The notes: generated by a model not told the origin, from the sequence alone. Positions 2,433 to 27,350 are shown, counted from the stretch's first letter. The stretch is 32,525 bases of DNA from a virus (IMGVR_UViG_3300007516_000010:64417-96941); one strand, 5' to 3'. Numbers and translations: made by a program.

Positions 2433-2452
2433 CGACAAAATCGATTTTGTCG
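2433..2452. repeat. dispersed palindrome copy 1 (CGACAAAATCGATTTTGTCG)
   Basis: Perfect 20-bp palindrome 10 nt after stop at 2422. Confidence 0.95.
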
Positions 2453-2466
2453 GCGACACACTTCAC

Positions 2467-2505
2467 GCAGGCCACCGGGTAATTCCCCGGTGGCCTGCTT
2501 TGTTT
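2467..2505 (+). terminator. intrinsic terminator
   Basis: 13-bp stem GCAGGCCACCGGG/CCCGGTGGCCTGC, 6-nt loop, then TTTGTTT. Confidence 0.8.
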
Positions 2506-2542
2506 AACCAGGCCTATCACAAATTAGACCCAATATTAACCC

Positions 2543-2785
2543 ATGGCGATGATCGTTAAATACTCGTCCGACGGGATGAAGCAGATTATTCAGGAACAAG
2601 CGACGGCGAAAGACTTTGGCAAGCTCTTCCGCGAAAAGAAGAAAGAGGCCAAGGGCGACGTAGAGAAGCAGGTCGACTGGCTTAGCAATGGGCAGTTCGA
2701 GGTTAGCTGTGATCGCTGGGCAGCGGCACACACGTATCGTCTTCGCCCAGACAACTGGCCGGTTAACAATGGAGAACCGCAATGA
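2543..2785 (+). CDS. hypothetical protein
   Basis: 80-aa ORF, ATGA-coupled to next gene. Confidence 0.65.
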   Translation: MAMIVKYSSDGMKQIIQEQATAKDFGKLFREKKKEAKGDVEKQVDWLSNGQFEVSCDRWAAAHTYRLRPDNWPVNNGEPQ

Positions 2786-3240
2786 CACATGACTACCGAT
2801 ATTACTTACAACGCCGAGTCGATTACTACGACAGCTTGGACCCGCTAACGACAAGCAGCGTAACGCGAGACCTGATCTTTGCGGCCAACATGGCGCTGAG
2901 TAATTACGACGAATTCATGGCCGAGCATAACCAGCCGCCGACCGACACTCAGTGGCGAGTGATTCGTCACGCCATCCACATGCTCCACATGTGGAGCCAG
3001 TTGTGTGCGGAAGCCACGGTGATTCCCGACGAGAGCTGCAGGGTCTGGCACAAGCAGGCTGAGCGGCAGTGTTACCAAGACTCCTTAACCTCGATGAAGT
3101 TAGTCAAGCTCATCGAGGACTACGACGTGGTGAACTGCCGGGTGCGGATGGGGTGCGTTTGGTACGACGCCGAGCAGATCCCGCCGGATCAAAAGATCGT
3201 GTTCGTAGCCAGCGGACCAGAGGTGGATGTTACCGGCTAG
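2782..3240 (+). CDS. hypothetical protein
   Basis: 152-aa ORF, GGAG RBS, ATGA coupling. Confidence 0.7.
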   Translation: MTHDYRYYLQRRVDYYDSLDPLTTSSVTRDLIFAANMALSNYDEFMAEHNQPPTDTQWRVIRHAIHMLHMWSQLCAEATVIPDESCRVWHKQAERQCYQDSLTSMKLVKLIEDYDVVNCRVRMGCVWYDAEQIPPDQKIVFVASGPEVDVTG

Positions 3241-3287
3241 CGTAGCCGGATGGTTTCAGTTTTTACTAACGCACAAAGAGAAAATAC

Positions 3288-3661
3288 ATGTTCAGGCAAG
3301 TTGATTTGGCAGATACGGTGGGCAAGACAGTCCGTGCCGTCGCGGGTATCGGTAACTACACGATAGTCGTGTCGTTTACCGACAACACCTTCAGCGCGAT
3401 ATCCGTGGACAAGCCGGACGATCCCTTCCTCGACGAGGACGAGGTGTGGATCACCTCAGACGGAAACTTCAGCGTGCTATCGCCTGGCGCTAAAAGCAAG
3501 CTCGTAGGTTTGTTCGGCAAAGAGTCTACGAAGCAAATGCGTGCGGCGGTGAAGGCCAAATCTGCGAATTTGCGAAGCAGATGACGAAGAACAATCTGGA
3601 TGAGCGTCGCGAACTTTATGCGGAACTGAAAGCGGAGTTCGAGGTTACCGGCGTCTCTTGA
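3288..3661 (+). pseudogene. hypothetical protein with probable frameshift near 3565
   Basis: ORF 3288..3584 continues in another frame as EFAKQMTKNNLDERRELYAELKAEFEVTGVS* (TGA 3659-3661). Confidence 0.55.
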
Positions 3662-3830
3662 ATAACTTGCCGCCGTGATCTGCGAGCGTAAACGACGCAC
3701 TGATCGCCGATTCTTTGGTTAATTAACGCCTCAGCCGGAATTCGCGGTTTCGCGGCTATCGTCTATTGTCGTCTCGTAGTGGACACGACTTACGGCCCGG
3801 GCGATGCGCAACCGACAAGGCGATAACTAA

Positions 3831-4103
3831 ATGGCGAAGCAGAAGACGACGACGTTATTGGGTGAAGTCCAAGCGATGGACGACTCGAAGGCTGTACCTC
3901 GCGACTGGTTTGCGAAGCTCGACCCTGCTATTAAGGCGGAGTTGTCGGAACTATGTCAAGATTTTCTAGATGGCGGAACGGTAAGACGTAAGTTTGCCAC
4001 TGCCACTGACATGTATCATTGGCTGTATAAGAAAGGAATCGTTAGTGTCCGCGCCGACCGGTTCCGGCACTGGCTACGGGAACTAGGTGCGAACCGTGGC
4101 TAA
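3831..4103 (+). CDS. hypothetical protein
   Basis: 90-aa ORF overlapping the phosphoesterase start. Confidence 0.75.
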   Translation: MAKQKTTTLLGEVQAMDDSKAVPRDWFAKLDPAIKAELSELCQDFLDGGTVRRKFATATDMYHWLYKKGIVSVRADRFRHWLRELGANRG

Positions 4104-5085
4104 AAAGTCGCTGCTAGACGACGTTGCGAAGGTGCAAGACGCGGTTAAGGTGTCGCAAGAGGTTGCGACACTTCGCAACCAGCTAGCGACCGCTCATCGG
4201 GTTATCGCCGATCAGCAGGAGCGGATTGAGCAGATCAGTCGCAAGCGGTTTCGGATTGGCAAATCGACGGCCAAGAACCGCAACCCAGGGAAGACCCACA
4301 CACGTGTGATCGTTCCCGACTCGCATGGTTGCTTCATCGATAAAGCGGCTGCGGCCGCGTTCCTATCCGACCTGGAGTTGCTTGCACCTGATGAGGTTGT
4401 CTGGTTAGGCGACCACATCGATTGTGGTGGTTTTCTCGCCGAGCATCACACACTCGGCTACGTCGCTCAGGCTGAGTATACGTTCACAGATGACTGCATC
4501 GCCGCCAACACGTTCATTGACCAGGTGCAGGCGATCACCCCCAAGGCCAAGCATCGTTACCTTGCAGGGAATCACGAGCGAAGGCTAGAGACTTGGTGTG
4601 CGACGACTTCGCTGCGTAACGCTACCGACGCTGCGATGCTTTACCGGCTCTTCTCGGCGCCGGCCGTGCTACACCTCGAAGAGCGAGGCATCGATTACTA
4701 TGACCAGGGCAAGTTTTATGATGGCTGCCGAATCCCAGGCACGATTAAGCTCGGCAAGTGTTACTTCACGCACGGGAGTAAGCACGGTAAGAAAGCTGCT
4801 GACCAGATGTTAGCCAGGTTCAATGCCCCGGTATGTTTCGGACACGTGCACAAACTTCTTGCCGCCAGCGACCGCAACGTGAAGGATGGTGAACTGGCGG
4901 CCTGGTGTTGCGGTTATCTCGGTCAACTACAGCCACTGTGGCGACACACCGACCCGACGGACTGGGTCCAGGGGTATGCGTTTCAGGTCGTCCGATCCGA
5001 CGGTGAATTTCTCCACATCAACTGCCCGATCATCGGCGGGAAGTCGTACCTTGTGCAGTTGTCTGAGCGAGTGGGGAAAGCATGA
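4087..5085 (+). CDS. calcineurin-like metallophosphoesterase with N-terminal coiled coil
   Basis: Motifs PDSH, GDHID, GNHE, THG, GHVH in the expected order; true start may be GTG 4096. Confidence 0.9.
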   Translation: MRTVAKKSLLDDVAKVQDAVKVSQEVATLRNQLATAHRVIADQQERIEQISRKRFRIGKSTAKNRNPGKTHTRVIVPDSHGCFIDKAAAAAFLSDLELLAPDEVVWLGDHIDCGGFLAEHHTLGYVAQAEYTFTDDCIAANTFIDQVQAITPKAKHRYLAGNHERRLETWCATTSLRNATDAAMLYRLFSAPAVLHLEERGIDYYDQGKFYDGCRIPGTIKLGKCYFTHGSKHGKKAADQMLARFNAPVCFGHVHKLLAASDRNVKDGELAAWCCGYLGQLQPLWRHTDPTDWVQGYAFQVVRSDGEFLHINCPIIGGKSYLVQLSERVGKA

Positions 5086-5360
5086 AACGACCTCCCGACT
5101 TCGTCTGTACACTAGGCGGGGCGGAGTGGCAGGTTCGTTTCGTTCGCAGGGGACATCCGAAGGTGCCTAAGTGCTGGGGCATCTGTTACTGGGATCATAA
5201 AGAGATATACGTCCGCTACGACTTGTCCGAGCAGCGGGTCAGGGAGGTGCTGTTGCACGAGATGCTGCACGGAACCTGTCGCCTTCTTTTTGTTGCCGAA
5301 GAGTGGGTAGACTACACCGCCCAGGAGCTGGCCGTCGGCATGCGGCGGGCAGGCTTCTGA
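5082..5360 (+). CDS. small HExxH zinc metallopeptidase-like protein
   Basis: WGIC...EIYV...EVLLHEMLHG; ATGA-coupled to phosphoesterase. Confidence 0.8.
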   Translation: MKRPPDFVCTLGGAEWQVRFVRRGHPKVPKCWGICYWDHKEIYVRYDLSEQRVREVLLHEMLHGTCRLLFVAEEWVDYTAQELAVGMRRAGF

Positions 5361-5458
5361 TTCTTTTAACGGCGGCGATGACCGAACGTTCTAGCGACGC
5401 GAGGGACACGACGTCCTCTTGATTCGTCGTTGTTATCAACTCTAACCAGGACAACACA

Positions 5459-6043
5459 GTGACACTCACGGAAAGACAGCAGTCGTCGTCGGATCAGGCC
5501 CAGCAGCGGTTTGCCGAAGCGACGCGTTCGACAGCATTCAATTTGAATCTCGGGATCATGGAAATTCGCCTGCTGCGAGACAACAACTTTCAGTTAGTCC
5601 ATCGCCGCAGCGCGTCAGAGTTGGCAGCTCTGCAGCGGTTGGTCGACAAAGGGATGGTACTTACCGAGCCAGGCAAGAAACCAACGCTGTCCGAAGCCGG
5701 ACGCGTGACCCGCGAATTGCTGGTGCTTTCCAGGCACATCACCACGGACGAGAATCCACAGCGACTCGAGCCCGATGATCTCCTGCAGATTCTGCGTAAC
5801 GGGATGCGTCACTACCTCGGCGGCGGCAACGCTTGGCTCGCTAGAGTATACTTGCGGAAAGGCAATCCGGGCGAAGAATCCGAGCTGAGGATCGTCACCA
5901 AGAAAACAGATTACGACGTCTATCCAGTAGACGCCGGACTGCGGCCATGGATCCACCAAGAGTTCGCCATTCCGGCGTCGGCGATCCGCGAGGTCACTCG
6001 TTCGCCAGAGCCGCCAACCCAACCCCATAACACTGATGGCTAA
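5459..6043 (+). CDS. hypothetical protein (possible winged-helix N-terminal part)
   Basis: 194-aa ORF after AGGA; ALQRLVDKGMV...LSEAG resembles a wHTH wing. Confidence 0.65.
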   Translation: MTLTERQQSSSDQAQQRFAEATRSTAFNLNLGIMEIRLLRDNNFQLVHRRSASELAALQRLVDKGMVLTEPGKKPTLSEAGRVTRELLVLSRHITTDENPQRLEPDDLLQILRNGMRHYLGGGNAWLARVYLRKGNPGEESELRIVTKKTDYDVYPVDAGLRPWIHQEFAIPASAIREVTRSPEPPTQPHNTDG

Positions 6044-6046
6044 AAA

Positions 6047-6604
6047 ATGAGAAACATCTTCTTTGGCTTGTTGTTCACCCTCTGCGGTTCCGCACAGGCT
6101 CAGGAGCTCAAGGTGATCGCCTTTGACTGCTTCGGCACCGTGTTCAACTTTGCGGACCTGCCGCTGCAGGAGAAGCGAGATTACATCCGGCAGCTTAAAC
6201 AGACGCCGTGGAAGCCACTGGAGCTGCCCGCGTCGTGGGAGACCATGCCGGCGCATCCGGACAGCCGCGAGGGCCTGGAGCGGCTACGCAGGCATTACGT
6301 CGTTGTTACCTGTAGTAATGGCCCTGCTCCGCTGCTCGTAAAGATGAGCCGAAACGCAGGGATCAACTGGGACATGGTGTTGCCGCTGGAGCTGATCCCG
6401 GCGTATAAACCAGATCCTCAAACGTACGAGATGATCGCCAAGGTGCTGGGTGTGCTGCCCAGTGAAGTCTTGATGGTGACCGGTAACGAAGGCTCGCCGG
6501 ACCTTGTCGTACCTCGGACGATCGGCATGCGGGTGATGCGTATCCGCGGTGAGCCTGGAACCCCGCAGACGATCGGCGAGCTCGCTGATCTGCTAGAACC
6601 GTAA
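6047..6604 (+). CDS. HAD-superfamily hydrolase (haloacid dehalogenase type II-like) with predicted signal peptide
   Basis: AFDCFGTV (motif I), CSNG (motif II), YKPDP (motif III); N-terminus MRNIFFGLLFTLCGSAQA resembles a Sec signal. Confidence 0.85.
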   Translation: MRNIFFGLLFTLCGSAQAQELKVIAFDCFGTVFNFADLPLQEKRDYIRQLKQTPWKPLELPASWETMPAHPDSREGLERLRRHYVVVTCSNGPAPLLVKMSRNAGINWDMVLPLELIPAYKPDPQTYEMIAKVLGVLPSEVLMVTGNEGSPDLVVPRTIGMRVMRIRGEPGTPQTIGELADLLEP

Positions 6605-6619
6605 TAACACCTCAGCCCT

Positions 6620-6649
6620 AGCGGCGACAAAATCGTTTTTGTCGCCGCT
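6620..6649. repeat. dispersed palindrome copy 2
   Basis: AGCGGCGACAAAA-TCGT-TTTTGTCGCCGCT, 15 nt after stop at 6604. Confidence 0.95.
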
Positions 6650-6696
6650 GTATCCAGTACTCGACCAACGACCGCGTCAGTTTTATGGAGTAACCA

Positions 6697-7215: not shown

Positions 7216-7303
7216 GCGAGCCACCCACGAAACCCTGCCACGAAGTTGTCTGTTTAACGCTGAACCGACAAAAGCACCGAACGACAGAAAACAAGGAAAA
7301 CGA

Positions 7304-7594
7304 ATGATAGAAGTATGGCAGGTTTCGCACACGTATAGCTTTCGCTTTCACAAGCTGATGGCCGACAAGGTGACTGACCTCTGCGTCATTGTTAACGGTT
7401 CGCGTGTAGCTAAATCATCGGATGGCACGCGTTACTTCATGACCTTTGCCGACGCGAAAGAGTACGCACTCACCAGGCTGAAAAACGACATCGTGAAGGC
7501 CAATAAATCGCTAGCCGTTGCAGAGGAGAATTTACGACAAGTGACCGCGACAACCCCGGACACGATTAAGACAGCTAAAGGCATTTACGGATGA
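7304..7594 (+). CDS. hypothetical protein
   Basis: In-frame ATG 7304 after AAGGA within ORF 7067..7594. Confidence 0.7.
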   Translation: MIEVWQVSHTYSFRFHKLMADKVTDLCVIVNGSRVAKSSDGTRYFMTFADAKEYALTRLKNDIVKANKSLAVAEENLRQVTATTPDTIKTAKGIYG

Positions 7595-7628
7595 GCAGCC
7601 AAATTGATATTAGCCGCAGGGCTCACTT

Positions 7629-7913: not shown

Positions 7914-7929
7914 TTACGATTACAGTTAC

Positions 7930-8002
7930 CGGGCTTTAGTTTAGGAGGTGCAGAACATGAGTAGAATTACTCAAGGCGATGGTTCGAGTCCATCAGGCCC
8001 GA
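7930..8002 (+). tRNA. tRNA-like element / pseudo-tRNA, isotype undetermined (6-nt anticodon loop)
   Basis: Acceptor CGGGCTT/AGGCCCG, T8A9, D stem GTTT/GAAC with GG in loop, anticodon stem TGAGT/ACTCA with loop AGAATT, T arm GATGG-TTCGAGT-CCATC, discriminator A then CTA. Confidence 0.75.
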
Positions 8003-8190
8003 CTATACGGAAGCGAGACAGGCAGCGTCTCGCAGGATACGACAGAGCAATACAATTGCTAGATGTGGAGCTATTCGCAATGAGACTCTTTCGCGACCCG
8101 GTACTGAAGAAAGCCGTCGCAAAGCGGGAAGCGATTGACGAGAAACGCCGCACGTTGCGAGCATGGATGAAAGGCTACAAAGAGTCATAA
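7957..8190 (+). CDS. hypothetical basic protein starting inside the tRNA-like element
   Basis: AGGAGG 7943-7948 and in-frame ATG 7957. Confidence 0.5.
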   Translation: MSRITQGDGSSPSGPTIRKRDRQRLAGYDRAIQLLDVELFAMRLFRDPVLKKAVAKREAIDEKRRTLRAWMKGYKES

Positions 8191-9034: not shown

Positions 9035-9064
9035 AGCGGCGACAAAATCGTTTTTGTCGCCGCT
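9035..9064. repeat. dispersed palindrome copy 3
   Basis: Identical to copy 2 over 33 bp (TAGCGGCGACAAAATCGTTTTTGTCGCCGCTGT); upstream of thyA. Confidence 0.95.
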
Positions 9065-9096: not shown

Positions 9097-9900
9097 ATGC
9101 GAGCCTATCTGGACTTGCTTGAAGACGTCATCACCAACGGCGAAGGCCACGCCGACCGCACCGGTGTCGGTACCCGGTCGGTGTTCGGACGGACTTTTCG
9201 TCACGACATGTCCGAAGGGTTTCCGATCCTCACTACCAAGAAGGTTGCGTTCCGCTGGGTAGCGGAAGAGCTGTTTTGGTTCTTGTCCGGCTCAACCAAC
9301 GCCAAAGACTTGTCCGCCAAGGGGGTAAGCATCTGGGATGAGTGGCAGCGAGAAGATGGCGATCTCGGTCCGGTTTACGGTAAGCAGTTCAGAGATTTCG
9401 GCGGCGTGGACCAGTTGCAAGTGTTCTTGGACCAGTTGATGTCCAACCCACAGAGTCGTCGGCACGTCATGACACTCTGGAATCCGGTCGACTTGCCTCA
9501 GATGGCGTTACCGCCGTGCCACGGGATTTCGATCCAGGCCAAGGTACACCAAGACGACAGCCTGTCGCTGATGATGACCCAGCGTTCAGCCGATATTTTA
9601 TTGGGTGTTCCCTACAACATCACGTCGTATGGCTTGTTCTTGTCGCTGCTCGGATGGGTGACCGGCCGCAAGACCCGCGAGCTGATCATCACGTTTGGTG
9701 ACCTCCATCTGTACAACAACCACGTCGAGCAGGCAACGACTCAGCTGAGTCGTACACCGCATGCGTTACCAAAGCTGGCTATCAAGTCGTCGTTACCGCA
9801 GGGGTCGCCGCTGGAGCGGTTGTTGTCGGTCAAATACGAACACCTAAACCTACGTGCTTACACGCATCATCCGCCGATCAAAGCCGACGTAGCGGTTTAA
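9097..9900 (+). CDS. thyA: thymidylate synthase
   Basis: DRTGVGT, FPILTTKKV, ELFWF, LGPVYG, ALPPCH (catalytic Cys), QRSAD..GVPYN, GDLHLY; AGGAG RBS. Confidence 0.97.
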   Translation: MRAYLDLLEDVITNGEGHADRTGVGTRSVFGRTFRHDMSEGFPILTTKKVAFRWVAEELFWFLSGSTNAKDLSAKGVSIWDEWQREDGDLGPVYGKQFRDFGGVDQLQVFLDQLMSNPQSRRHVMTLWNPVDLPQMALPPCHGISIQAKVHQDDSLSLMMTQRSADILLGVPYNITSYGLFLSLLGWVTGRKTRELIITFGDLHLYNNHVEQATTQLSRTPHALPKLAIKSSLPQGSPLERLLSVKYEHLNLRAYTHHPPIKADVAV

Positions 9901-13567: not shown

Positions 13568-14338
13568 ATGGCAAGCGTGACATTTTTGGTGGTGGCGACG
13601 AATGCTTATTTACCGCTAGGTGTACGGCTGGTTAAGCGGTTCAACCACTTTTATCATGGCGAGGACGCCGTAACGATACACTTGCTTACGGACGAGGAGC
13701 TGGAACCGTATTTACCGCCAGGTAACTGGGCACGCGAGCGACGCATACACACTAACTGGGTGGAGGGCACCAGCTCGAAGTTTAAAGAGTTGATCACCTT
13801 GAGCCGGTCGTGCGACACAGAGTACCTTTACGTCCTAGACGCGGACACAAGCTTTAACCGCCCGTTTGATCTAAAGTGGTTACTTGGCGACACGGTAGCG
13901 TGTGAGCACTTTGGCAACCGCGACTGGATGGCCGACAACGATAAAAAGAATTACGAACGCAATCGTAAGTCGCTGGCATACGTTCCGTATGACACCCCCC
14001 ATCCTCAGATGTATTACATGGGGATGCTGATTGGCGGCAAAACCACGTGTGTTGAAGAGTTTTCGACCACAATGCTCGATTGGCAGACAGAAGATACTCG
14101 CACTGGCAATCCAGCTTGCGTGCAGGACGAGTCGTACATCAACAAGTATTTTCACGTGAATCCGCCGTCGCACGTGGTACCGACTGACGGGTTTCCTTGG
14201 GTTATCTCTGACAAAGGCGGTCTGGGAGAGACTCGCAACGTCAACTTGGGCGTCAGCCGGGTCAAAGCTGTCCTGCAGGAATTTCGAGATCGTCCGTTGA
14301 TTGACATCAGAAATAACGTAGTTTCAGCCGTCAATTGA
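13568..14338 (+). CDS. glycosyltransferase family 6 (ABO/alpha-1,3-Gal(NAc)T-like)
   Basis: VATNAY, LLTD, DxD motif (DAD), YERNRKSLAYV, YYMG..IGG, QDESYINKYF. Confidence 0.88.
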   Translation: MASVTFLVVATNAYLPLGVRLVKRFNHFYHGEDAVTIHLLTDEELEPYLPPGNWARERRIHTNWVEGTSSKFKELITLSRSCDTEYLYVLDADTSFNRPFDLKWLLGDTVACEHFGNRDWMADNDKKNYERNRKSLAYVPYDTPHPQMYYMGMLIGGKTTCVEEFSTTMLDWQTEDTRTGNPACVQDESYINKYFHVNPPSHVVPTDGFPWVISDKGGLGETRNVNLGVSRVKAVLQEFRDRPLIDIRNNVVSAVN

Positions 14339-14344: not shown

Positions 14345-14372
14345 GCGGCGACAAAATCGATTTTGTCGCCGC
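14345..14372. repeat. dispersed palindrome copy 4
   Basis: Perfect 28-bp GCGGCGACAAAATCGATTTTGTCGCCGC, 6 nt after GT6 stop. Confidence 0.95.
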
Positions 14373-18733: not shown

Positions 18734-19660
18734 ATGAATTACTACCTAATCACACTTTCGTGTGAATGTCCCGGGTATACCAGCCACCACCGGTTGCAGT
18801 TCGTTATTACAGAGCATGTGACGAGCACGGCTTCTGGCTTGCTTTCCAACCTATGCGACACACTTACCGACACAAGCGTCAATCCGTATGTTGAATTGTC
18901 TTTTGTCAGACTACCTCCAACACACGTCAGAATGTTTAGCAGCTACAGCATTGATCAGCTCGAAAAAGTCACAGCCGAGATATCTGTGGCAATTATTGCC
19001 TACACCAACAGGCTGCTTCGGTCAGGCTTTACGCTTGCGGCCGCTCCGCGGCCGGAGGCATCGCCGGAGGCATCGCCAGACAAGGCAGGCAAGACGACGC
19101 TGCGGAACACGGTTTTGGCGATGCTGTTAGCCACCGAAGATAGCGATATCAATTATCAAGAAGCCGCGAGTCTTCGCACAGTTATCGGCGGTGAGCCGCT
19201 ATATCAATTTAGGCATGCTGACGGCGAGACTAGTTACGCGGCGATGCAAGACGTGCTGGAGGTCGGCAATCCGCGAAACGAAAGCGACGATGACGAAGAT
19301 GCGGGGTACATCGGCTTAGTTCCGCCCGTTGTCGGCATCGACATGTCCGGAGGGCTGGTGACTTCGGTATGGGTTGACGGTTCCCCTGAAAGCAAGTATT
19401 TCGTTAACGACTCCGACGACTGGGCGGAGGTCAACTGGGACATCATTGACTGGGACGCCATTGACTGGGACACAGAGGTAGCCGCGGCCGTCACCGATCA
19501 GGTCGAACGCGTGGTCGAATACCTGCGGGCCTGGCGAAAAGGAGAAATGAGTTCGGAATTATTGTTTTGGCTGATCGACGCGGCCCCGACCGAATTAGTT
19601 GATCTTGTTTCGCACGCGATTATCACCATCCAAAATTGCGACACGGTGTCCGATAAATAG
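18734..19660 (+). CDS. hypothetical acidic protein
   Basis: 308-aa ORF after AAGGA; repeated D/W motif VNWDIIDWDAIDWD. Confidence 0.7.
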   Translation: MNYYLITLSCECPGYTSHHRLQFVITEHVTSTASGLLSNLCDTLTDTSVNPYVELSFVRLPPTHVRMFSSYSIDQLEKVTAEISVAIIAYTNRLLRSGFTLAAAPRPEASPEASPDKAGKTTLRNTVLAMLLATEDSDINYQEAASLRTVIGGEPLYQFRHADGETSYAAMQDVLEVGNPRNESDDDEDAGYIGLVPPVVGIDMSGGLVTSVWVDGSPESKYFVNDSDDWAEVNWDIIDWDAIDWDTEVAAAVTDQVERVVEYLRAWRKGEMSSELLFWLIDAAPTELVDLVSHAIITIQNCDTVSDK

Positions 19661-19722: not shown

Positions 19723-19752
19723 GTCGGCGACAAAATCGATTTTGTCGGCGAC
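19723..19752. repeat. dispersed palindrome copy 5
   Basis: Core 19728-19747 perfect, arms GTCGGCGAC; at the boundary between accessory and virion/RNAP regions. Confidence 0.95.
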
Positions 19753-20649: not shown

Positions 20650-22545
20650 ATGTCTGATCTTACCATTGGCCAGCACATGCTGTCGGCTATGCTTCCGCCG
20701 GACGCTTATCGTCCTGGCCAGGTGATCGACAAGAAAAGCATCAGCCAGATCTTTGGCGACTTAGCGGCCAATCATGCGGACGATTACAAAGAGATATCCC
20801 ACCAGGCGATGTTGTTCGGGCGGGACTCGGCGAAGATGAGCGGCGGCGGGGCGTTCTCGATCCGCCACATGGCGACTCCCAAGCGGGCCCAGGCCAGGCG
20901 AGACGTCATTCGGCAAACGATTAGCGACATATTGCTGACAACTCCCGAAGCGGACCGCGACCAAGCGATTATCGACGTACTGGCCAAGGCTCAGTCGACG
21001 GACAAGGACGAGACGGTTGCCGAGGCAGAGGAAGAAGGTAATCCGTTTGCGACCATGCTCAAAGGAGCCGGCCGTGGAAACCCAGCTAGTATCGCTAGGC
21101 TGATCTCCAGCGACTTGATGTACGCTGACGCGTCTGGCCGCCCAATTGCTATCCCCGTACTTAACTCGTACAGCCGCGGGCTAACCCCGAGCGAATACGC
21201 CGCGTCGACGTTCGGTGTACGCAAGGGACTGGTCGACGCCAAGGTAGGAGTCGGCACGGGTGGCTACGCCGCTAAGCTGTTGCTTGCCGCGGCTCATCGC
21301 ATGGTTGTCACTGACAACGATGCTCCGCCAGAGCTGGAAATGCTTTCCGCCGGTCGTGGTTTACCTGTCGACGTCACCGACACTGACAACATCGGAGCTT
21401 TGCTGGCGGCCGACACGGGGCCGTACCCGCGTAACACTACGATCACGCCAAAGATTCTCGCCCACCTGCAGAAACTCAAGCACGACGAGATCCTTGTTCG
21501 CAGTCCACTAACGAGCGTCGATCCCGCCGGCGGTGTCTACGCCAGGGATGTCGGTTTCCGCGAACAGAACCGTTTACCAGCGATCGGCGAGTCGGTCGGG
21601 GTTACCGCTGCTGGGGCAATCTCAGAACCGGTCACGCAATCCCTGCTTAGCTCCAAGCACAAAGGCGGCCTCGCCGAGGCCCAGTCCGACGAGTTGACCG
21701 GGTTCGCTCTCATCGACCGGCTGATCAACACGCCCAAGGAGTTCCGCGAGGCGGGGACGCATACGGAAGTCGACGGCAAGGTCGAATCGATTAAGCCCGC
21801 TGAGCAGGGCGGCTCGTACGTCACCGTCGCCGGCCAGCAGTACTATGCTTCGCCCAACGCCAAAGTCACCGTCAACTTAGGCGACGACGTCGAAGCGGGC
21901 GACATGCTCACCGGCGGCACACCCAACCCGCGGATGGTAATTCGGCACAAGGGGCTAGGTGAAGGTGGGCGGCAGTTGGTCAAGTCGTTACACAAGGCGA
22001 TCGGCAAAGACGCTCACCGCAGGAACATCGAGTTGATTGTGCGTGGTTTGGTCGACCGAGTACGCGTGACTGAGGAGTTCGACGACTATGCACCTGAAGA
22101 CGTTGTCCCGTACAGCGAGGTGATGAGCAGGTGGCAACCGCGAGAGGGTTCCAGCGTGGATGGGCTGCACCGAATCCGCGGCAAGTACCTGGAGCAGCCT
22201 GTGCTGCATTATTCCGTTGGCACGCGAATTACGCCGTCGGTAACCAAGATGCTACAAAAGCACAACGTTCAGCAGATCACGACGCATAACTCGCCGCCGC
22301 CATTTGAGCCTGAAACGGTTCGGGCGACCGACGTGCTGCGAACCGATCAGGACTGGATGACGCGGCAGGTGGGAACAGGACTCCAGCGTGGATTACTTGA
22401 ATCGGCACACCGCGGACGAATTAGCGACGAGGATTCGACGAGTTTTGTGCCCGCGAGGGCTCACGCAGTAAACTTTGGGAGCGTCGGCAAAGTCCAGTTG
22501 TCGCCTCCCAAGCCATCCTCATTGCCCAACTTAGGCTATCAATAA
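20650..22545 (+). CDS. DNA-directed RNA polymerase beta' subunit, C-terminal half (phage-encoded, split)
   Basis: IDKKSISQ; NPFATMLKGAGRG; GLTPSEYAASTFGVRKGLVDAKVGVGTGGYAAKLL (bridge helix); VRSPLT; GESVGVTAAGAISEPVTQSLLSSKHKGG (trigger loop); HRRNIELIVR; no NADFDGD. Confidence 0.92.
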   Translation: MSDLTIGQHMLSAMLPPDAYRPGQVIDKKSISQIFGDLAANHADDYKEISHQAMLFGRDSAKMSGGGAFSIRHMATPKRAQARRDVIRQTISDILLTTPEADRDQAIIDVLAKAQSTDKDETVAEAEEEGNPFATMLKGAGRGNPASIARLISSDLMYADASGRPIAIPVLNSYSRGLTPSEYAASTFGVRKGLVDAKVGVGTGGYAAKLLLAAAHRMVVTDNDAPPELEMLSAGRGLPVDVTDTDNIGALLAADTGPYPRNTTITPKILAHLQKLKHDEILVRSPLTSVDPAGGVYARDVGFREQNRLPAIGESVGVTAAGAISEPVTQSLLSSKHKGGLAEAQSDELTGFALIDRLINTPKEFREAGTHTEVDGKVESIKPAEQGGSYVTVAGQQYYASPNAKVTVNLGDDVEAGDMLTGGTPNPRMVIRHKGLGEGGRQLVKSLHKAIGKDAHRRNIELIVRGLVDRVRVTEEFDDYAPEDVVPYSEVMSRWQPREGSSVDGLHRIRGKYLEQPVLHYSVGTRITPSVTKMLQKHNVQQITTHNSPPPFEPETVRATDVLRTDQDWMTRQVGTGLQRGLLESAHRGRISDEDSTSFVPARAHAVNFGSVGKVQLSPPKPSSLPNLGYQ

Positions 22546-22578
22546 ATTGGCCCACGCTCGCTACCAGGAACTGCTGTA

Positions 22579-24942
22579 ATGTCGCTGCCTTTGTCCACCC
22601 AGGCAAGTCTTAACCTTGCCCAAGATGCCTACAAGAAAGCATCTGTTCGGTTTCTCTCTGAGCCGCAGCGATGGGAAACAGCTCGTCAGCTGATCAAGAC
22701 TGCTGACTTCGGTGAGAACAGCAACCCACAATTTGAGAAGGCGTTCGGCGCGATCGCTTTCACTTACCTCCAAGAGAAAGCCCCTGGGCTGCTACCGTAC
22801 GTAGTCGGCTTTCAGCTGATTGACCGCTCGGAGCAGGGCCGCAAAGCGATCGGGGCGTTTACCGCCAAGCTCGGTAACCGTGTTATCGACATTCCGATGT
22901 TCTTCATCAACGGAGAACTCAAGGGCCACCAGTTTATGCGGCTGCGAAAGCCCGAACTGTTTATCCCGTTACGGGAAGCCTTCCTGGACTTCTTGTTCAG
23001 TAAGCTGCCGCAGGATCTCGGGGACGCCTCGGGTTCGTTGTCGGTACCTAGTCCGGTGCGAGCGACGCCCAACATTCAGCCATTCTCCGGCAGCCGCTTC
23101 AACAAGAACAGCGAAGATATCGACCATGCACATCCCTGGGCGATCGAAGCCGGGACGTTCGAGGCTTATGCGGACATGCGGCTGTCGTTGCGGACGCTCA
23201 AAGTAGGTAGCGAACTCAAGCATGGCCGACCGCTTCCAGGCGTCAACTTGCTAGAGATCATTGGCGAGTCCGAAGAGCTGCTCAAGACGGCAGCTAGGAT
23301 GGCCGATCAGTATCCTGAATTCGCTGCTGGCATGTCGCGTCGTCACGGCGATGACTGGATGCATAAAGCTGCTTCGGCGATTGTCGCGTCACGTGTCGCA
23401 CCGCTGCCGGCGATTTCGCTTCCTTTAGCCCCTGGGGCTCCGCGAATCGCCGTGGGAGCGAAGCTAGCTATCGATCGGCTGTTCTACCGCGACAAGGTTG
23501 CCACGATGGCGACACCGGAGCGTAAAGAGGCGATGCGAGCAGAGATCGATCGGTTCGGCTTCTTTGTGGATGACCACCGTTCGGCGGACAAGATTGCGGC
23601 AGCTTACGAGATCGAAGACCAGAAGCTGCGAATTGAGCCACCTAACTTGCCGGGCGTGTACCGCGTAGCGTTTGCAGGCGATGAGGTCAAAGAAGCGATC
23701 ATTTTCCCCAGTCAGTACCGCATTGACGACGACAAAGACCTGATCATTGAGACGGGTAAGAAGCGGTTCGCCTTTGGTGAGCGAAACAGTTACATCGTCA
23801 GCCACATCGACAGCACCGAAGCGAACCGCGAAAGCAAGCTGGATAAACTGCTGACCGGCAAGAAGCGACCCAGCGAGAACGAAGCATTCCTTGTGTTGCT
23901 ACCGCAGCACCGTATCGCTGGGCCCTTTGTCGTCAGCGAGAAGCTCGGCAAGGATCGTTACCGGGTATCGTCCTTGTGCGACTGCGGGTCGATGCGAATC
24001 AACGAGATTGAGTTTCGTGATACACAGCGGCTTGGCGGGCATATCGTCGACGGTATTCTGATTGTCCCCAAGACAGCCAAAGTGTTATCGCTAGGTTCGC
24101 TCAAAGCGGATGAAGACGGCTATGTAGGCTACGCCGAGCGGGAAAACCTGCATGTCGAGTTGTTGTCCAGCAGTCGTATCGAGCTTGGCAACTTGAGCAA
24201 GTACGCCAATCTTGAGCTGCTTGTGAAGAGCGGTGGTCAGGTTGATCTCAACGGCAAGCGGATGAAGCTATCGCACGCACGCAAGGTGCTACTGCAGCAG
24301 TGCGGTATGGCTAAGGATGCGGTAGACGCTCTTTTAGAGTCTCCGCGACCGATGCGTAGGTTCATCGTCGCCAAGCTCGGTAGCGAGCCATCGCTAGCAT
24401 TTGAGAAATTTGCCGCTCCGTATTTCACCCCTGCGGTTGATTTTCCTCAAGAGGACCAGGGCTATTCCAGCGAGAGCGGTCGCTACACGATCGAGAACCC
24501 GCAGACGCAGTATAGCTCGGCCGAGCCCGAACAACGGTTCCAGCCGACGCCGGTAAACGAAGATGTCCCCGGCCAGATGCCAGGCACGGTTAGCGGGACG
24601 AACGGCGGTTCAAACTCCGGCATGGTTTCGCAGAACGAGACCGCTTCGCTGTTTGACACTTCTGGGCTGGTTTCGCTCGTCCGTAACAGCCGTATCGACA
24701 GCCAGATTCGCAAGACGACTCAGTCGCTTCTGCGTGCGATCGACGAGCTAGGTACGGCTCTGTTTGTGTTCTACGCCCATAACGACGAATTCGAGTCGAT
24801 GTATGGCGAAGAAGCGATGGAGGATCTGGAATCGGCCATGATCAGTACTTTCGAGGGCGGTGGCGACCTGTTCATCACGTTGTCTCGCCGCTCCGCCGAT
24901 CCACACCCTGAACTCGACATTGCGGACCTTCCGCACCAATAA
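22579..24942 (+). CDS. large hypothetical protein, putative virion/head-associated
   Basis: 787 aa; recurring K-x-[A/G/S] motifs; adjacent to RNAP subunit. Confidence 0.8.
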   Translation: MSLPLSTQASLNLAQDAYKKASVRFLSEPQRWETARQLIKTADFGENSNPQFEKAFGAIAFTYLQEKAPGLLPYVVGFQLIDRSEQGRKAIGAFTAKLGNRVIDIPMFFINGELKGHQFMRLRKPELFIPLREAFLDFLFSKLPQDLGDASGSLSVPSPVRATPNIQPFSGSRFNKNSEDIDHAHPWAIEAGTFEAYADMRLSLRTLKVGSELKHGRPLPGVNLLEIIGESEELLKTAARMADQYPEFAAGMSRRHGDDWMHKAASAIVASRVAPLPAISLPLAPGAPRIAVGAKLAIDRLFYRDKVATMATPERKEAMRAEIDRFGFFVDDHRSADKIAAAYEIEDQKLRIEPPNLPGVYRVAFAGDEVKEAIIFPSQYRIDDDKDLIIETGKKRFAFGERNSYIVSHIDSTEANRESKLDKLLTGKKRPSENEAFLVLLPQHRIAGPFVVSEKLGKDRYRVSSLCDCGSMRINEIEFRDTQRLGGHIVDGILIVPKTAKVLSLGSLKADEDGYVGYAERENLHVELLSSSRIELGNLSKYANLELLVKSGGQVDLNGKRMKLSHARKVLLQQCGMAKDAVDALLESPRPMRRFIVAKLGSEPSLAFEKFAAPYFTPAVDFPQEDQGYSSESGRYTIENPQTQYSSAEPEQRFQPTPVNEDVPGQMPGTVSGTNGGSNSGMVSQNETASLFDTSGLVSLVRNSRIDSQIRKTTQSLLRAIDELGTALFVFYAHNDEFESMYGEEAMEDLESAMISTFEGGGDLFITLSRRSADPHPELDIADLPHQ

Positions 24943-24950
24943 GGACTATC

Positions 24951-25316
24951 ATGGCTTTTAGCTCTGCAACCTACGTTCCAGGCGACGCCTGGACCACGCC
25001 AGACTTCCTCGGCAGGGCGTTAACGCCGCCCAAGCTGGTTGTCGCCGCGGCGGCTGCCAACGCCACGACGCCTCCAAGTTACTTCGAGTACCGGCAGCGT
25101 GCCGGTAACAACGATCCTTTTGTCTCCATTTCAGTTTCGGCTGCAGGCGGCTTCTCGGTCGTTTTGGAGCGATCCTTTGACGCCGGGGCGACTTGGGGGC
25201 TGTTAGCGACTTACGCCGCTAACACCGAGACCACACTGGAGCCAGGCGGCCTATTTATGTTACGGTTACGAGTCGTCTCGGGCACTGGCGTCTACTTAGC
25301 CCTGCGGCAAGGCTAA
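24951..25316 (+). CDS. small beta-rich putative structural protein
   Basis: AAGGA RBS; VVLERSFDAGATW (Asp-box-like). Confidence 0.75.
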   Translation: MAFSSATYVPGDAWTTPDFLGRALTPPKLVVAAAAANATTPPSYFEYRQRAGNNDPFVSISVSAAGGFSVVLERSFDAGATWGLLATYAANTETTLEPGGLFMLRLRVVSGTGVYLALRQG

Positions 25317-25375
25317 GTTCTTTGTCGCTTACAGCTGTCAGCGACTAATGGCGAAAAATTCTAGGGACTTACGAC

Positions 25376-26320
25376 ATGAAGACCGACACTCGCGGGGCGG
25401 TCGAACTGCCCATCTCCCGCGGTTTCGAGCGTATAGCCGAGGTACGGTTAGCCACGGTTCACTTCAATCCATGCGGGTATAAACGCTTGCGGGATACCTA
25501 CTACGAGTGGTTACCAACGCTCGGTCCGCTTGCTCCTGCGGTGAAGTGCTACGAGTTGGTGTTTGACGACGACCAACCAGAGATTGAGGGATCGACAGTG
25601 CTCCGCGGTACCAGGCGAGAACACCTGATGTTCCAAAAAGAGCCGCTGGTCAACATCGCTCTGCGAAACTGCGGGCCGGAGGTTAAGTACTTCGCTTGGT
25701 TGGACCACGACTTCGTCAACGCTGATCCTGACTGGCTGGCCAAAGGCGTCGCTAAAATTGACGGCGGCGCGCTTGCGGTGCAGTTGCTCTCTCGTGCGGT
25801 CTGGCTCACCCGTGACCGTCGTCCGAGTGATATAGCCGTCGGCGCTGTTAAACGGTGGAAGACATCGGCTGATTGCAACGGCAATCCAGGTGCACTGTGG
25901 TTAGCGTCGCGAACGTATCTGGACATGATCGGTGGACTTAGCTGCGACAACATCGTAGGCGGCGGCGATCAGAACTGGATCGATGCCGCGGTAGGACGTT
26001 ACGGCTACCATCTGCAGCGGTACAGTGAGCCACTGAGGCAGACGATGCGTGAGCGGATTCGCACCGCGGCAGGGTTACGCGGCGGGCGAACTGCAGACTA
26101 CTTAGAGACGGACGCATACCATCTCTGGCACGGCGAGTTCAGCGACCGAAAGTACAACGAACGTAACGCGATTCTTCGGGATTATGATCTCCGACCAGGC
26201 CGCGACTTGCGAATCGACCTGCAAGGTCTACAGAGCTGGAGCGGACAGGAACATCCAGGATTGCGGCAGGCAGTCGCGGAATACTTTGAGCAGCGGCGGG
26301 AAGACGGTGATGAGACATAG
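25376..26320 (+). CDS. glycosyltransferase-like (GT-A fold) protein
   Basis: FNPCGY, FQKEPLVNIA, YFAWLDHD (DxD), VGGGD, YHLWHG. Confidence 0.7.
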   Translation: MKTDTRGAVELPISRGFERIAEVRLATVHFNPCGYKRLRDTYYEWLPTLGPLAPAVKCYELVFDDDQPEIEGSTVLRGTRREHLMFQKEPLVNIALRNCGPEVKYFAWLDHDFVNADPDWLAKGVAKIDGGALAVQLLSRAVWLTRDRRPSDIAVGAVKRWKTSADCNGNPGALWLASRTYLDMIGGLSCDNIVGGGDQNWIDAAVGRYGYHLQRYSEPLRQTMRERIRTAAGLRGGRTADYLETDAYHLWHGEFSDRKYNERNAILRDYDLRPGRDLRIDLQGLQSWSGQEHPGLRQAVAEYFEQRREDGDET

Positions 26321-26325
26321 CGTGC

Positions 26326-26351
26326 CGGCGACAAAATCGATTTTGTCGCCG
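26326..26351. repeat. dispersed palindrome copy 6
   Basis: Perfect 26-bp CGGCGACAAAATCGATTTTGTCGCCG, 5 nt after stop 26320. Confidence 0.95.
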
Positions 26352-26451
26352 CACCTTCCGCAAGGATGGCAATGAACAAGTACGTACGCAGTATTTATGG
26401 CGGGACAATTGCGGCGGTGGTTGAAGACCCGCCAACTGAAACGGAGCAACC

Positions 26452-27309
26452 ATGAGCAATATTCACATCGGTACCCCTGGACGAACTTACTACGCCAAAG
26501 AAACCGGCAGTAGCGTTTCGCCGTGGTCGACCGGCGTGGTGCCTTACACCGAGTTGCCGCTAGCCGGTGTATTTGCTGCGGCTACGGATAATGGCGAAAC
26601 GTACGTGATTTACGACCAGCTCACCGGCAGCCCGCTGGCAACGGACAGCATTGACGGGACTGTCGGCGTGGTAAGCCCGACGGCCGCGGAGATACAGGCG
26701 ATCGTGGAAGGCGTTATCGGCAACAGCGGCGTCGGCGAATTCTTCTTAACAGTTCAGGTCAACAGTTCCGTTGCCGGGAACCCAGGGCTGCATAACGTGC
26801 GAGTGGCTATTCTCGGTTCTTCCACCCGCCAGTTCACCGACGTCATGGGCAACGTTGTTTTTCGCGTTGAAGCGGGTGACTACACACTCAGCTTTGTTGC
26901 TCCCCCACAGTACGCAGCCGTCGCTGACTTGCCCGTGACCAGCGTCACCGCGGACCGTGAGGTCGTCGTCATACTGACGCCTTCGTTCATTCCGTTACCG
27001 GATGACCCGCTGCTGTGCAATTGTCTGCTCATCGTGCTGGATCAGCTGGGTTCACCGATCGCTGGTGCGACGATATCGCCGGTGATGGTTGGGCAAGGAA
27101 CCGCGGACGGCGGTGCGTTTGTGTTCAACGAGCCCGTCACGTTTACTACCGACGTAGATGGACGTGTGTTCATGCAGCTGCACCGCAAGCGTACCTACGA
27201 CTTCTTCGTCAGCGTTACGGACCTCGGAAGTTTACAGGTGGTAAAACGAATCCCGGATTTGCCGACGCATTTAATCACTATTGGCGGACAAGTCGCCGGA
27301 GCCTGCTAG
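26452..27309 (+). CDS. putative virion protein with carboxypeptidase-regulatory-like/Ig-like beta-sandwich domains
   Basis: TDVMGNVVFRVEAGDYTL and PIAGATI...TTDVDGRV repeats. Confidence 0.7.
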   Translation: MSNIHIGTPGRTYYAKETGSSVSPWSTGVVPYTELPLAGVFAAATDNGETYVIYDQLTGSPLATDSIDGTVGVVSPTAAEIQAIVEGVIGNSGVGEFFLTVQVNSSVAGNPGLHNVRVAILGSSTRQFTDVMGNVVFRVEAGDYTLSFVAPPQYAAVADLPVTSVTADREVVVILTPSFIPLPDDPLLCNCLLIVLDQLGSPIAGATISPVMVGQGTADGGAFVFNEPVTFTTDVDGRVFMQLHRKRTYDFFVSVTDLGSLQVVKRIPDLPTHLITIGGQVAGAC

Positions 27310-27316
27310 GCATATC

Positions 27317-27350
27317 GTGTCGCCGACAAAATCGATTTTGTCGGCGACAC
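27317..27350. repeat. dispersed palindrome copy 7
   Basis: Perfect 34-bp GTGTCGCCGACAAAATCGATTTTGTCGGCGACAC, 7 nt after stop 27309. Confidence 0.95.

What the first reader, a model, noticed from the sequence alone, without database searches (positions are those of the whole stretch)
2433..27350. Seven intergenic copies of a long palindrome, core CGACAAAATCG(A/T)TTTTGTCG
Seen: copies at 2433, 6620, 9035, 14345, 19723, 26326 and 27317, 20-34 bp long, all intergenic and mostly 5-15 nt after a stop codon. The core sequence is nearly invariant, has essentially no loop and no U-tract, so it is not a standard terminator; copy 1 has a separate terminator next to it. Outer arms co-vary (GCGGCGAC/GTCGCCGC vs GTCGCCGAC/GTCGGCGAC), and copy 1 combines the left arm of one type with the right arm of the other. 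Copies 6 and 7 share a downstream CACCTYCCGCAAG. Inference: a site for a dimeric protein (parS-like partition or genome-organising site, or operator), a cruciform promoter or processing signal for the phage RNAP, or a recombination site bounding gene modules. I do not recognise the motif.
Basis: partly seen in the sequence, partly recalled or inferred. Interest (0 to 1): 0.82.

Follow-up and report, generated by a model that had tools for sequence, protein, structure and literature searches.

The report
Invariant gene-end palindrome of a phage
An uncultured large phage that carries its own RNA polymerase repeats one almost unchanging 26-32-base palindrome about every 5.5 kb, mostly just after stop codons.

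Summary
All seven copies sit at the stated places (0 expected by chance). The 96.9-kb contig holds 17, and relatives' metagenome contigs add 18 more distinct sites.

- **Conservation:** the conserved unit is 26 bp, GC-S-CGACAAAAWCGWTTTTGTCG-S-GC. No decayed copy exists at up to 4-5 mismatches.
- **Not a host repeat:** 185,579 species genomes give 8 single chance hits. No cultured phage and no Rfam family holds it.
- **Lineage-specific:** closer relatives keep the identical core, once at the same spot after an orthologous gene of 62% identity. A complete 205-kb relative has only ordinary hairpin-plus-T terminators.

New evidence:
- One site is wedged between the stop codons of convergent terminase and PhoH genes.
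- The flanks are C-rich and G-poor on the sense strand on both sides.
- All six true in-gene copies have a broken ninth base pair, against 5 of 29 intergenic copies.
- Spacing is more even than random.
- The claimed arm co-variation is weak.

Best reading (0.42): an RNA hairpin read by sequence that marks or forms transcript ends for the phage polymerase. Main rival (0.35): a dsDNA docking site for a dimeric protein.

This scan already reported the same motif on the neighbouring window of this genome.

The parts
2430..2455 (+). Copy 1. Core 2433-2452, centre TCGA. Left arm GCGG, right arm GCGA (G.G mismatch next to the core). 10 nt after the stop of gene 1757-2422.
2467..2498 (+). Canonical intrinsic terminator (13-bp GC-rich stem, tail TTTGTTT), starting 15 nt after the core of copy 1. 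It is the only strong one in the window.
6620..6649 (+). Copy 2. Core 6625-6644, centre TCGT, 13-bp arms. 20 nt after the stop of gene 6047-6604.
9035..9064 (+). Copy 3. Core 9040-9059, centre TCGT, 13-bp arms. The only copy in the window with a T-rich tail. 37 nt before the thymidylate synthase gene (9097-9900).
14345..14372 (+). Copy 4. Core 14349-14368, perfect 28-bp palindrome. 10 nt after the stop of the glycosyltransferase-like gene 13568-14338.
19723..19752 (+). Copy 5. Core 19728-19747. G.G mismatch next to the core, then 4 further pairs. 67 nt after the stop of gene 18734-19660.
26326..26351 (+). Copy 6. Core 26329-26348, 13-bp arms. 8 nt after the stop of gene 25376-26320. Followed by CACCTTCCGCAAG.
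27317..27350 (+). Copy 7. Core 27324-27343, perfect 34-bp palindrome with the alternative arms GTGTCGC/GCGACAC. 14 nt after the stop of gene 26452-27309. Followed by CACCTCCCGCAAG. A relative has the identical core 13 nt after the orthologous gene.
26452..27309 (+). Single gene (285 aa) bracketed by copies 6 and 7. Its orthologue in L051 (62% identity) lies in a different gene order but keeps the palindrome after its stop.
20650..22545 (+). Context: stand-alone C-terminal half of RNA polymerase beta-prime (Pfam RNA_pol_Rpb1_5). The phage has its own multisubunit RNAP.

Best explanation
The palindrome is a cis-acting signal private to this phage lineage, and it acts in the transcript. It is transcribed within the long co-oriented mRNAs made by the phage's own RNA polymerase. 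There it folds into a 12-17-bp hairpin (8-bp core stem CGACAAAA/UUUUGUCG, loop UCGA, outer GCGG/CCGC), held between about 20 nt of G-poor, C/U-rich single-stranded flanks. A factor reads stem and loop by sequence: the polymerase itself, a termination factor, or an RNA-binding or RNA-cutting protein. The result is that the end of the upstream gene block is marked, by 3'-end formation, processing or protection. Where a long gene block offers no intergenic room, the core is written in frame into tolerant protein linkers, with the ninth base pair broken so that the mRNA hairpin is weaker.

Shown:
- the copies, their invariance and their positions;
- the asymmetry of the flanks;
- the broken pair in in-gene copies;
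- conservation in relatives;
- absence from host genomes.

Inferred:
- that the RNA rather than the DNA is read;
- the outcome (termination, processing or stabilisation).
For: 1. Position. 15 of 17 copies in the contig are intergenic. Most lie 8-21 nt after a stop and 22-106 nt before the next start. In 16 of 21 sites scorable on both sides, the copy is nearer the upstream stop.
2. Convergent site. In relative L031 the 28-bp palindrome fills the 36-nt gap between convergent terminase (stop 7 nt before) and PhoH (stop 9 nt after). A palindrome gives both transcripts the same hairpin, and no promoter can fit there.
3. Flank asymmetry. On the sense strand both flanks are C-rich and G-poor. C minus G is +3.3 per 20 nt downstream (p=8e-5) and +2.0 upstream (p=0.004), against 0.0 in 39 control intergenic regions. 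The skew fades beyond about 25 nt. CACCY occurs in sense within 20 nt at 10 of 35 sites, against 0.7 expected per side. A symmetric DNA site predicts mirrored flanks.
4. Pairing next to the core. It is kept in 24 of 29 intergenic copies but in 0 of 6 in-gene copies (Fisher p=0.0003). Hairpin strength therefore matters.
5. Stability. The hairpins fold at -12 to -30 kcal/mol, with z-scores down to -7.5.
6. Few other signals. The window has only one canonical terminator, and sigma-70-like promoters are depleted: 7 found against 12.5 expected, and 2 against 8.6.
7. Relatives. The complete relative G002 has ordinary, diverse hairpin-plus-T terminators and no repeated palindrome.
8. Precedent. phiKZ and 201phi2-1, jumbo phages with their own multisubunit RNAPs, have sequence-conserved terminator hairpins at mapped 3' ends (PMC10914365, PMC11512511).
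Against:
- There is no U-tract at most copies.
- The six in-gene copies keep the core unchanged even at synonymous codon positions. A terminator inside genes would be harmful, so at least these copies must do something else or be young.
- The centre is itself self-complementary (TCGA in 28 of 35 sites), which a hairpin loop does not need.
- There is no clear co-variation at the variable positions and no G-U variant anywhere.
- Copy 1 is followed 15 nt later by a canonical terminator.
- Six copies lie only 22-39 nt from the next start codon, leaving little room for a new promoter if termination were efficient.
- The even spacing is as easily explained at the DNA level.
Confidence: 0.42

Rival explanations
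1. It is a docking site on double-stranded DNA for a dimeric (or tetrameric) phage protein not yet identified. Sites are laid about every 3-6 kb along the chromosome. The protein would organise the genome, regulate globally, or block the polymerase at gene ends, in the manner of KorB operators, stoperators or mTERF. The RNA hairpin would be a by-product, weakened where it would hinder ribosomes.
For: - 24 of 26 positions are invariant in 35 sites across at least two diverged lineages, including in-gene copies at synonymous positions.
- There is dyad symmetry right through the centre (TCGA in 28 of 35). The variable positions are W and S on either half, with no significant left-right association.
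- Spacing is more even than random: CV 0.53 against 0.95 +/- 0.20, P=0.003; against a null restricted to intergenic regions, P=0.002. Six of 16 intervals fall within 5.3-6.0 kb.
- The two in-gene copies in the contig fill what would otherwise be gaps of 19.6 and 14.2 kb.
- The in-gene copy in L038 lies in a hypervariable linker of a protein family.
- Known analogues exist: the Cluster O mycobacteriophage 17-bp dyad repeats, with 34 copies, invariant arms and a third inside genes (PMC4351075).
Against: - The flank composition is asymmetric on the sense strand, and the CACCY motif occurs in sense only. A symmetric site does not predict this.
- All six in-gene copies break the pair next to the core. 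This needs the extra assumption of avoiding an mRNA hairpin.
- No ParB_N domain is present, and no obvious binder appeared in Pfam or PHROGs scans of 106 contig proteins and 98 relatives' proteins. Only about half of the genome is available, however.
- 26 invariant base pairs is far more than a protein needs for specificity in a 200-kb genome.
Confidence: 0.35
2. It is a selfish or recombination-linked palindromic element. It would be copied to new places or homogenised among copies, like REP/RAYT elements, MITEs or integron attC sites. Copies would bound gene modules and promote shuffling.
For: - The pattern is all-or-none: no decayed copy at up to 4-5 mismatches in 97 kb plus about 120 kb of relatives' loci.
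- There are signs of local duplication: a tandem in-frame 45-nt duplication carrying the palindrome in L051, and a 12-nt duplication of the left arm in L037.
- The gene bracketed by copies 6 and 7 sits in a different gene order in the relative.
- Copies hug stop codons, as attC and REP do.
Against: - No transposase, integrase or HUH enzyme was found in the Pfam scans.
- The motif is absent from 185,579 species genomes and from cultured phages.
- The same site is kept after an orthologous gene at 62% protein identity, with the flanks otherwise unalignable. That implies long-term selection, not recent spread.
- The even spacing is not expected of a selfish element.
Confidence: 0.1
3. It is a hairpin or cruciform promoter, or an upstream activator site, for the phage RNA polymerase.
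For: - The phage has its own polymerase, and sigma-70-like promoters are depleted.
- Most copies lie 30-106 nt upstream of a start codon.
- N4-type hairpin promoters are a precedent (from general knowledge, not tested here).
Against: - The site between convergent stop codons has no gene to drive.
- The distance to the next start is not fixed (22-376 nt) and no shared downstream motif was found.
- Six copies lie inside genes.
- Copies sit nearer the upstream stop than the downstream start.
Confidence: 0.05

Closest known systems
Sequence-conserved terminator hairpins of phiKZ-like jumbo phages (phiKZ motif BCCYCCCCHWWDGGGRRGGBYTTAT..., 201phi2-1 motif A; PMC10914365, PMC11512511)
   Same: The phage has its own multisubunit RNAP. 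One recurrent hairpin motif is dispersed through the genome, mostly intergenic and after gene ends. [quoted passage not shown]
   Different: The phiKZ motif is degenerate, GC-rich, has a free loop and is followed by TTAT or a U-rich tail. Its 3' ends are mapped. Here 24 of 26 positions are invariant, the stem core is A/U-rich, the whole unit including the centre is a perfect palindrome, there is no U-tract, some copies lie in frame inside genes, and no 3' ends are mapped. The polymerases are only distantly related (25% identity to the nearest cultured phages).
17-bp dyad repeats of Cluster O mycobacteriophages (TGTTCGG-N3-CCGAACA, 34 copies in Corndog; PMC4351075)
   Same: The arms are invariant and the centre varies. 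There are dozens of copies throughout the genome, many intergenic and some inside genes. Orientation does not follow the centre asymmetry. The repeat is lineage-specific and its function and reader are unknown.
   Different: The Cluster O repeat is shorter (7+7 bp), denser (about 1 per 2 kb), and a third of its copies are inside genes. Its host phage uses host SigA promoters and has no polymerase of its own. No stop-codon hugging or flank asymmetry was reported.
Stoperators of Cluster A mycobacteriophages (L5 gp71; as discussed in PMC4351075)
   Same: Many dispersed copies of one short site lie in short intergenic gaps. A DNA-bound protein stops elongating polymerase there. This is the model for the roadblock version of the DNA rival.
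   Different: Stoperators are asymmetric 13-14-mers oriented with transcription, and they belong to temperate phages with an immunity repressor. Here the site is a palindrome twice as long, and no repressor is known.
KorB OB operators of plasmid RK2, and ParB-family sites (parS, NBS)
   Same: Near-invariant palindromes are dispersed over a replicon and read by a dimer. Some lie far from promoters.
   Different: Those sites are 13-16 bp. They need a ParB_N-domain protein, and none was found in the available half of the genome.
REP/BIME elements with RAYT transposases
   Same: Extragenic palindromes lie just after stop codons, can stabilise upstream mRNA, and are recognised by proteins.
   Different: REPs are host-chromosome repeats in hundreds of imperfect copies with a conserved 5' GTAG and a RAYT gene. 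This motif is absent from 185,579 species genomes, is perfect, and no HUH gene was detected.

Membership tests
Intrinsic (Rho-independent) terminator | Stable hairpin directly after a gene on the sense strand | tested here: met
   Stems are 12-17 bp and fold at -12 to -30 kcal/mol. Most lie 8-21 nt after a stop.
Intrinsic (Rho-independent) terminator | Run of U immediately after the stem | tested here: not met
   Only 3 of 17 contig copies have a T-rich tail. Positions +5..+14 are 28% T, 34% C and 15% G.
phiKZ-type sequence-conserved phage terminator | One recurrent hairpin motif in a phage with its own multisubunit RNAP | tested here: met
phiKZ-type sequence-conserved phage terminator | Transcript 3' ends map at the motif | not testable with these tools
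phiKZ-type sequence-conserved phage terminator | Conserved TTAT or U-rich element after the hairpin | tested here: not met
REP / RAYT | Many copies in the host chromosome | tested here: not met
   There are 8 single-copy hits in 596 Gb of 185,579 species genomes, and their flanks are unrelated.
REP / RAYT | Associated HUH (RAYT) transposase | tested here: inconclusive
   No HUH or transposase family appeared among 106 contig proteins and 98 relatives' proteins. The contig is only 49% complete.
ParB-parS / KorB-OB | ParB_N-domain protein encoded by the replicon | tested here: inconclusive
   There is no match in the contig at E<=0.1, and the control search worked. Half of the genome is missing.
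ParB-parS / KorB-OB | Dispersed near-invariant palindrome | tested here: met
Cluster A stoperator | Asymmetric site oriented with transcription | tested here: not met
   The site is a perfect palindrome. The centre variants are TCGT 5, ACGA 1 and ACGT 1.
Cluster O-type dispersed dyad repeat | Invariant inverted arms and a variable centre, tens of copies, both intergenic and in genes, lineage-specific | tested here: met
   This is a descriptive class with no known mechanism.
CRISPR repeat mimic (solitary repeat unit) | The same repeat occurs in a CRISPR array of some host | tested here: not met
   No array or multi-copy hit was found in the species genomes.
Hairpin promoter (N4 type) | Lies upstream of the genes it drives, at a fixed distance | tested here: not met
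   One copy lies between convergent stops. Distances to the next start range from 22 to 376 nt.

The most novel reading that the evidence does not exclude
This phage lineage may have replaced ordinary hairpin-plus-U terminators with a private, sequence-read punctuation system. One invariant palindrome, spaced about every 5.5 kb, would be recognised by a dedicated phage factor. That factor would work either on the RNA (a tag carried by every phage transcript that gives it its 3' end or protects it, as the histone stem-loop and SLBP do) or as a DNA-bound roadblock for its unusual two-chain polymerase (as mTERF does). Copies are deliberately written into protein linkers where no intergenic room exists.
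Probability: 0.25. Interest if true: 0.75.

Novelty: new variant of a known kind. Interest (0 to 1): 0.5.

Why it matters
How phages with their own multisubunit RNA polymerases end and organise their transcripts is largely unknown outside phiKZ-like phages. Here a single 26-bp word does some genome-wide job in a lineage with no cultured member, and it is conserved far more strictly than the proteins around it. Finding its reader would give a new, highly specific pair of nucleic-acid signal and protein, with possible use as a terminator or insulator part. It would also help explain the many dispersed phage palindromes whose function is still unknown, such as the Cluster O repeats. The contrasts found here turn the RNA-versus-DNA question into a few clean experiments: sense-strand flank bias, the broken pair in in-gene copies, the convergent-gene site, and the even spacing.

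Tried and rejected
- **Host REP:** rejected. There were 8 single chance hits in the species genomes.
- **IMG/VR contig with one exact match (L007/G001):** unrelated, with no RNAP match.
- **Cultured phages:** none matched, neither by megablast of 8.5 kb nor by blastn of the palindrome.
- **Rfam:** no family matched.
- **Equivalent repeat in the more distant relatives G002 and G003:** none found.
  - The frequent words in G002 are pentapeptide-repeat coding sequence, T-arm-like motifs and terminal-region repeats.
  - The GGTTGATAACAACC repeat in L018 lies inside coding sequence.
The closer relatives carry the same version.
- **A second IMG/VR protein scan:** found nothing.
- **Shared promoter-like motif in the flanks:** only weak k-mer enrichments.
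- **Paralogy of the two contig proteins with in-gene copies:** none.
- **Homologues of contig ORF 18460-19194, to test insertion versus in-situ origin:** none found.
- **Loci L035/L050:** dropped from the family. They are a bacterial metabolic operon with a chance match and unrelated flanks.
- **ParB:** not found.
- **G-U versus A-C tally in the outer arms:** uninformative, 9 against 14.

Full report
**Observation**

The seven copies are real. Exact matches to the 20-nt core lie at window 2433, 6625, 9040, 14349, 19728, 26329 and 27324, and none appeared in 100 shuffles. The window is the last third of a 96,941-bp viral contig (IMG/VR, estimated 49% complete) that holds 17 copies. Nearly all genes on the contig are on the + strand.

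No further copy appears even when 4 substitutions are allowed. The same holds, with 5 allowed, in about 120 kb of relatives' DNA. The family is therefore all-or-none.

**What is conserved**

I oriented all sites by their genes and removed duplicates, which left 35 distinct sites: 17 in the contig and 18 in relatives.
- The core varies only at its two central W positions: TCGA 28, TCGT 5, ACGA 1, ACGT 1.
- The second and third positions outside the core are also fixed: G-C in 33 of 35 and C-G in 34 of 35.
- The position next to the core is S on either side.
- Further out there is only a weak consensus, TAGCGG...CCGCTA.
- The conserved unit is thus 26 bp, GC-S-core-S-GC.

Taken over all sites, however, the left and right S positions show no significant association (Fisher p=0.61), and only two sites are truly compensated.

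**What the genome is**

The window encodes a stand-alone C-terminal half of RNAP beta-prime (Pfam Rpb1_5). The contig also has Rpb2_6, Rpb1_1 and Rpb1_2 domains, family A DNA polymerase, thymidylate synthase, rIIA/rIIB and SbcC-like proteins.

The nearest cultured phages match the beta-prime half at only about 25% identity: Vibrio phages D69, D148 and D181, and Salmonella phage Arash. Sigma-70-like promoters are depleted, and there is one good canonical terminator in 32.5 kb, right after copy 1.

**Not a host repeat, not a known RNA**
- The 20-mer occurs 8 times, each time singly and with unrelated flanks, in 596 Gb of 185,579 species genomes.
- It occurs once, by chance, in an unrelated IMG/VR contig.
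- It occurs in no cultured phage.
- Rfam has nothing for it.

**Relatives**
- **More distant relatives.** A complete 204,794-bp relative with terminal repeats (G002, RNAP 44% identical) has no repeated palindrome. Its hairpins are diverse, and several have classic T-tails. A second, 36-kb relative (G003) has none either.
- **Closer relatives.** A scan of JGI metagenomes for the motif found 47 loci.
  - About 30 are single chance matches. One looked plausible at first (L035/L050), but it is a bacterial metabolic operon.
  - The rest come from a few related sample series. They carry the motif with the GCGG/CCGC arms, often several copies per contig.
  - Their proteins match G002 or the contig at 25-89% identity, while the DNA does not align. 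They are therefore diverged relatives that use the identical word.
- **Same spot in two lineages.** L051 encodes the orthologue (62% identity) of window gene 26452-27309 and has the palindrome 13 nt after its stop. In the window it is 14 nt after (copy 7). The core is identical, the arm type differs and the flanks cannot be aligned.
- **Gene order.** The order of genes around this gene differs between the two phages.
- **Strain comparison.** Two strains about 80-90% identical in the flanks (L037, L076) also keep the unit unchanged.

**Position**
- In the contig, 15 of 17 copies are intergenic. Most lie 8-21 nt after a stop codon and 22-106 nt before the next start.
- With relatives included, 16 of 21 sites scorable on both sides are nearer the upstream stop.
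- The clearest case is L031:8514. The 28-bp palindrome fills a 36-nt gap between convergent genes: terminase large subunit (PHROG E=2e-40) and PhoH (Pfam E=1e-52). Their stops lie 7 and 9 nt away.
- That excludes a promoter role for this copy. It fits a gene-end signal that works on both strands.

**Copies inside genes**

The palindrome has no stop codon in any frame, so some 'in-ORF' calls are only ORFs extended upstream. An example is the sigma-like gene in L067, whose G002 homologue is about 48 residues shorter.

Six copies are truly inside genes. The codon-usage score is positive in the ORF frame on both sides and negative in the other frames.
- Four are read as D-K-I/N-D/V-F-V.
- Two, a tandem 45-nt duplication, are read as T-K-S-I-L-S.
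- The only nucleotide changes in them are at the two W positions. Those changes alter the amino acid, while synonymous third positions never changed.
- For one host protein (L038, 404 aa) an exhaustive HMMER search found 27 homologues. In the alignment the palindrome-coded peptide lies in a hypervariable linker of variable length between two conserved domains.

**Evidence that separates RNA from DNA**

For an RNA-level or transcription-oriented role:
1. The 20-nt flanks are C-rich and G-poor on the sense strand on both sides.
   - Downstream, C minus G is +3.3 (p=8e-5). Upstream it is +2.0 (p=0.004).
   - It is 0.0 in 39 control intergenic regions.
   - The bias is gone beyond about 25 nt.
   - Positions +5 to +14 are 62% pyrimidine.
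2. CACCY occurs in sense within 20 nt at 10 of 35 sites, against 0.7 expected per side.
3. The pair next to the core is kept in 24 of 29 intergenic copies and broken in 6 of 6 in-gene copies, each time by a change on exactly one side (Fisher p=0.0003).
4. The convergent-gene site described above.
5. There is a precedent in phiKZ and 201phi2-1.

For a DNA-level role:
1. 24 of 26 positions are invariant, inside genes as well.
2. The centre is self-complementary, which a loop does not need.
3. Variable positions are symmetric and show no clear co-variation; there are no G-U variants.
4. Spacing is more even than random.
   - CV is 0.53 against 0.95 +/- 0.20 (P=0.003). Against a null restricted to intergenic regions, P=0.002.
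   - Six of 16 intervals fall within 5.3-6.0 kb.
   - The two in-gene copies fill gaps of 19.6 and 14.2 kb.
5. Copy 1 has a canonical terminator right behind it.
6. Six copies lie only 22-39 nt from the next start codon.

An RNA 'tag' carried by every transcript would also explain even spacing, in-gene copies and the terminator after copy 1. A plain efficient terminator would not.

**No reader found**

There is no ParB_N domain in the contig. Pfam and PHROGs scans of 106 contig proteins and 98 relatives' proteins show no obvious sequence-specific binder, recombinase or transposase. Most of the proteins have no family, and half of the genome is missing.

**Verdict**

This is a genuine, strongly selected, lineage-private cis signal that is read by its sequence. 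I put 0.42 on an RNA hairpin that marks, forms or protects transcript ends for the phage polymerase. I put 0.35 on a dsDNA docking site of a dimeric protein (organiser or roadblock), 0.10 on a mobile or recombination element, and 0.05 on a promoter.

The closest known cases are the sequence-conserved terminators of phiKZ-like phages and the unexplained 17-bp dyad repeats of Cluster O mycobacteriophages. It is not a member of the intrinsic-terminator, REP, parS, stoperator or CRISPR-repeat classes on the features tested.

**Earlier work in this scan**

The scan had already reported this same motif on the neighbouring window of this genome, with the same open question. It has also noted many dispersed palindromes in other phages. 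Those notes prompted my spacing test. Their other claims were not used as evidence.

No expression data could be obtained, and no contexts of the closest protein homologues.

Noticed in passing
window 7930-8003 (+): A tRNA gene (Rfam tRNA, 48.5 bits) for which ARAGORN cannot name the anticodon ('tRNA-???'). No palindrome follows it.
   Followed up: no
window 26349-26365 and 27344-27361; also G000 1255, 4822, 44204, 71041, 73456 and L030:4261, L051:7644, L037:6927: A sense-strand CACCY word, identical to the core of the 16S rRNA anti-Shine-Dalgarno end, lies within 20 nt of 10 of 35 palindromes. It is upstream at 4 sites and downstream at 6, about 5-8 times the 0.7 expected per side.
   Followed up: partly
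L051:342-406 (minus-strand gene 3-1115): Two palindromes 45 nt apart lie inside one ORF. This is an in-frame tandem duplication of 15 codons (ATKSILSAT...).
   Followed up: partly
L037:4016 compared with L076:2128: Orthologous sites in two strains differ by a 12-nt duplication of the left arm (GTACCGGCGACA). The 28-bp unit itself is unchanged.
   Followed up: no
L031:4787-5424: About 640 nt with no predicted gene lie between two palindromes in a relative. The contig has a similar 710-nt gene-free stretch at G000 29416-30125, upstream of the in-gene copy at 30368.
   Followed up: no
L067:1853-2731 (and G002 141787-142521): A sigma-70-like protein (Sigma70_r3 plus a winged helix) is encoded by the relatives, with a palindrome just upstream of its probable true start.
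   Followed up: no
G002 1166-2111 and 203018-203435 (minus strand): The complete relative carries 7 copies of TTCGGAGTTTCCGAAGGGTT near both genome ends. It also has two genes made of 15-nt pentapeptide-type tandem repeats (about 168.1-169.1 kb and 197.7-197.9 kb).
   Followed up: no
window 1-32525: Sigma-70-like promoter matches are fewer than in shuffles (7 against 12.5; 2 against 8.6). Only one strong canonical terminator exists (2467-2498).
   Followed up: partly
L035 and L050: A bacterial metabolic operon (ornithine cyclodeaminase, short-chain dehydrogenase, mandelate racemase-type, PfkB and others) holds a chance copy of the 20-mer with unrelated flanks. It was excluded from the family.
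   Followed up: yes
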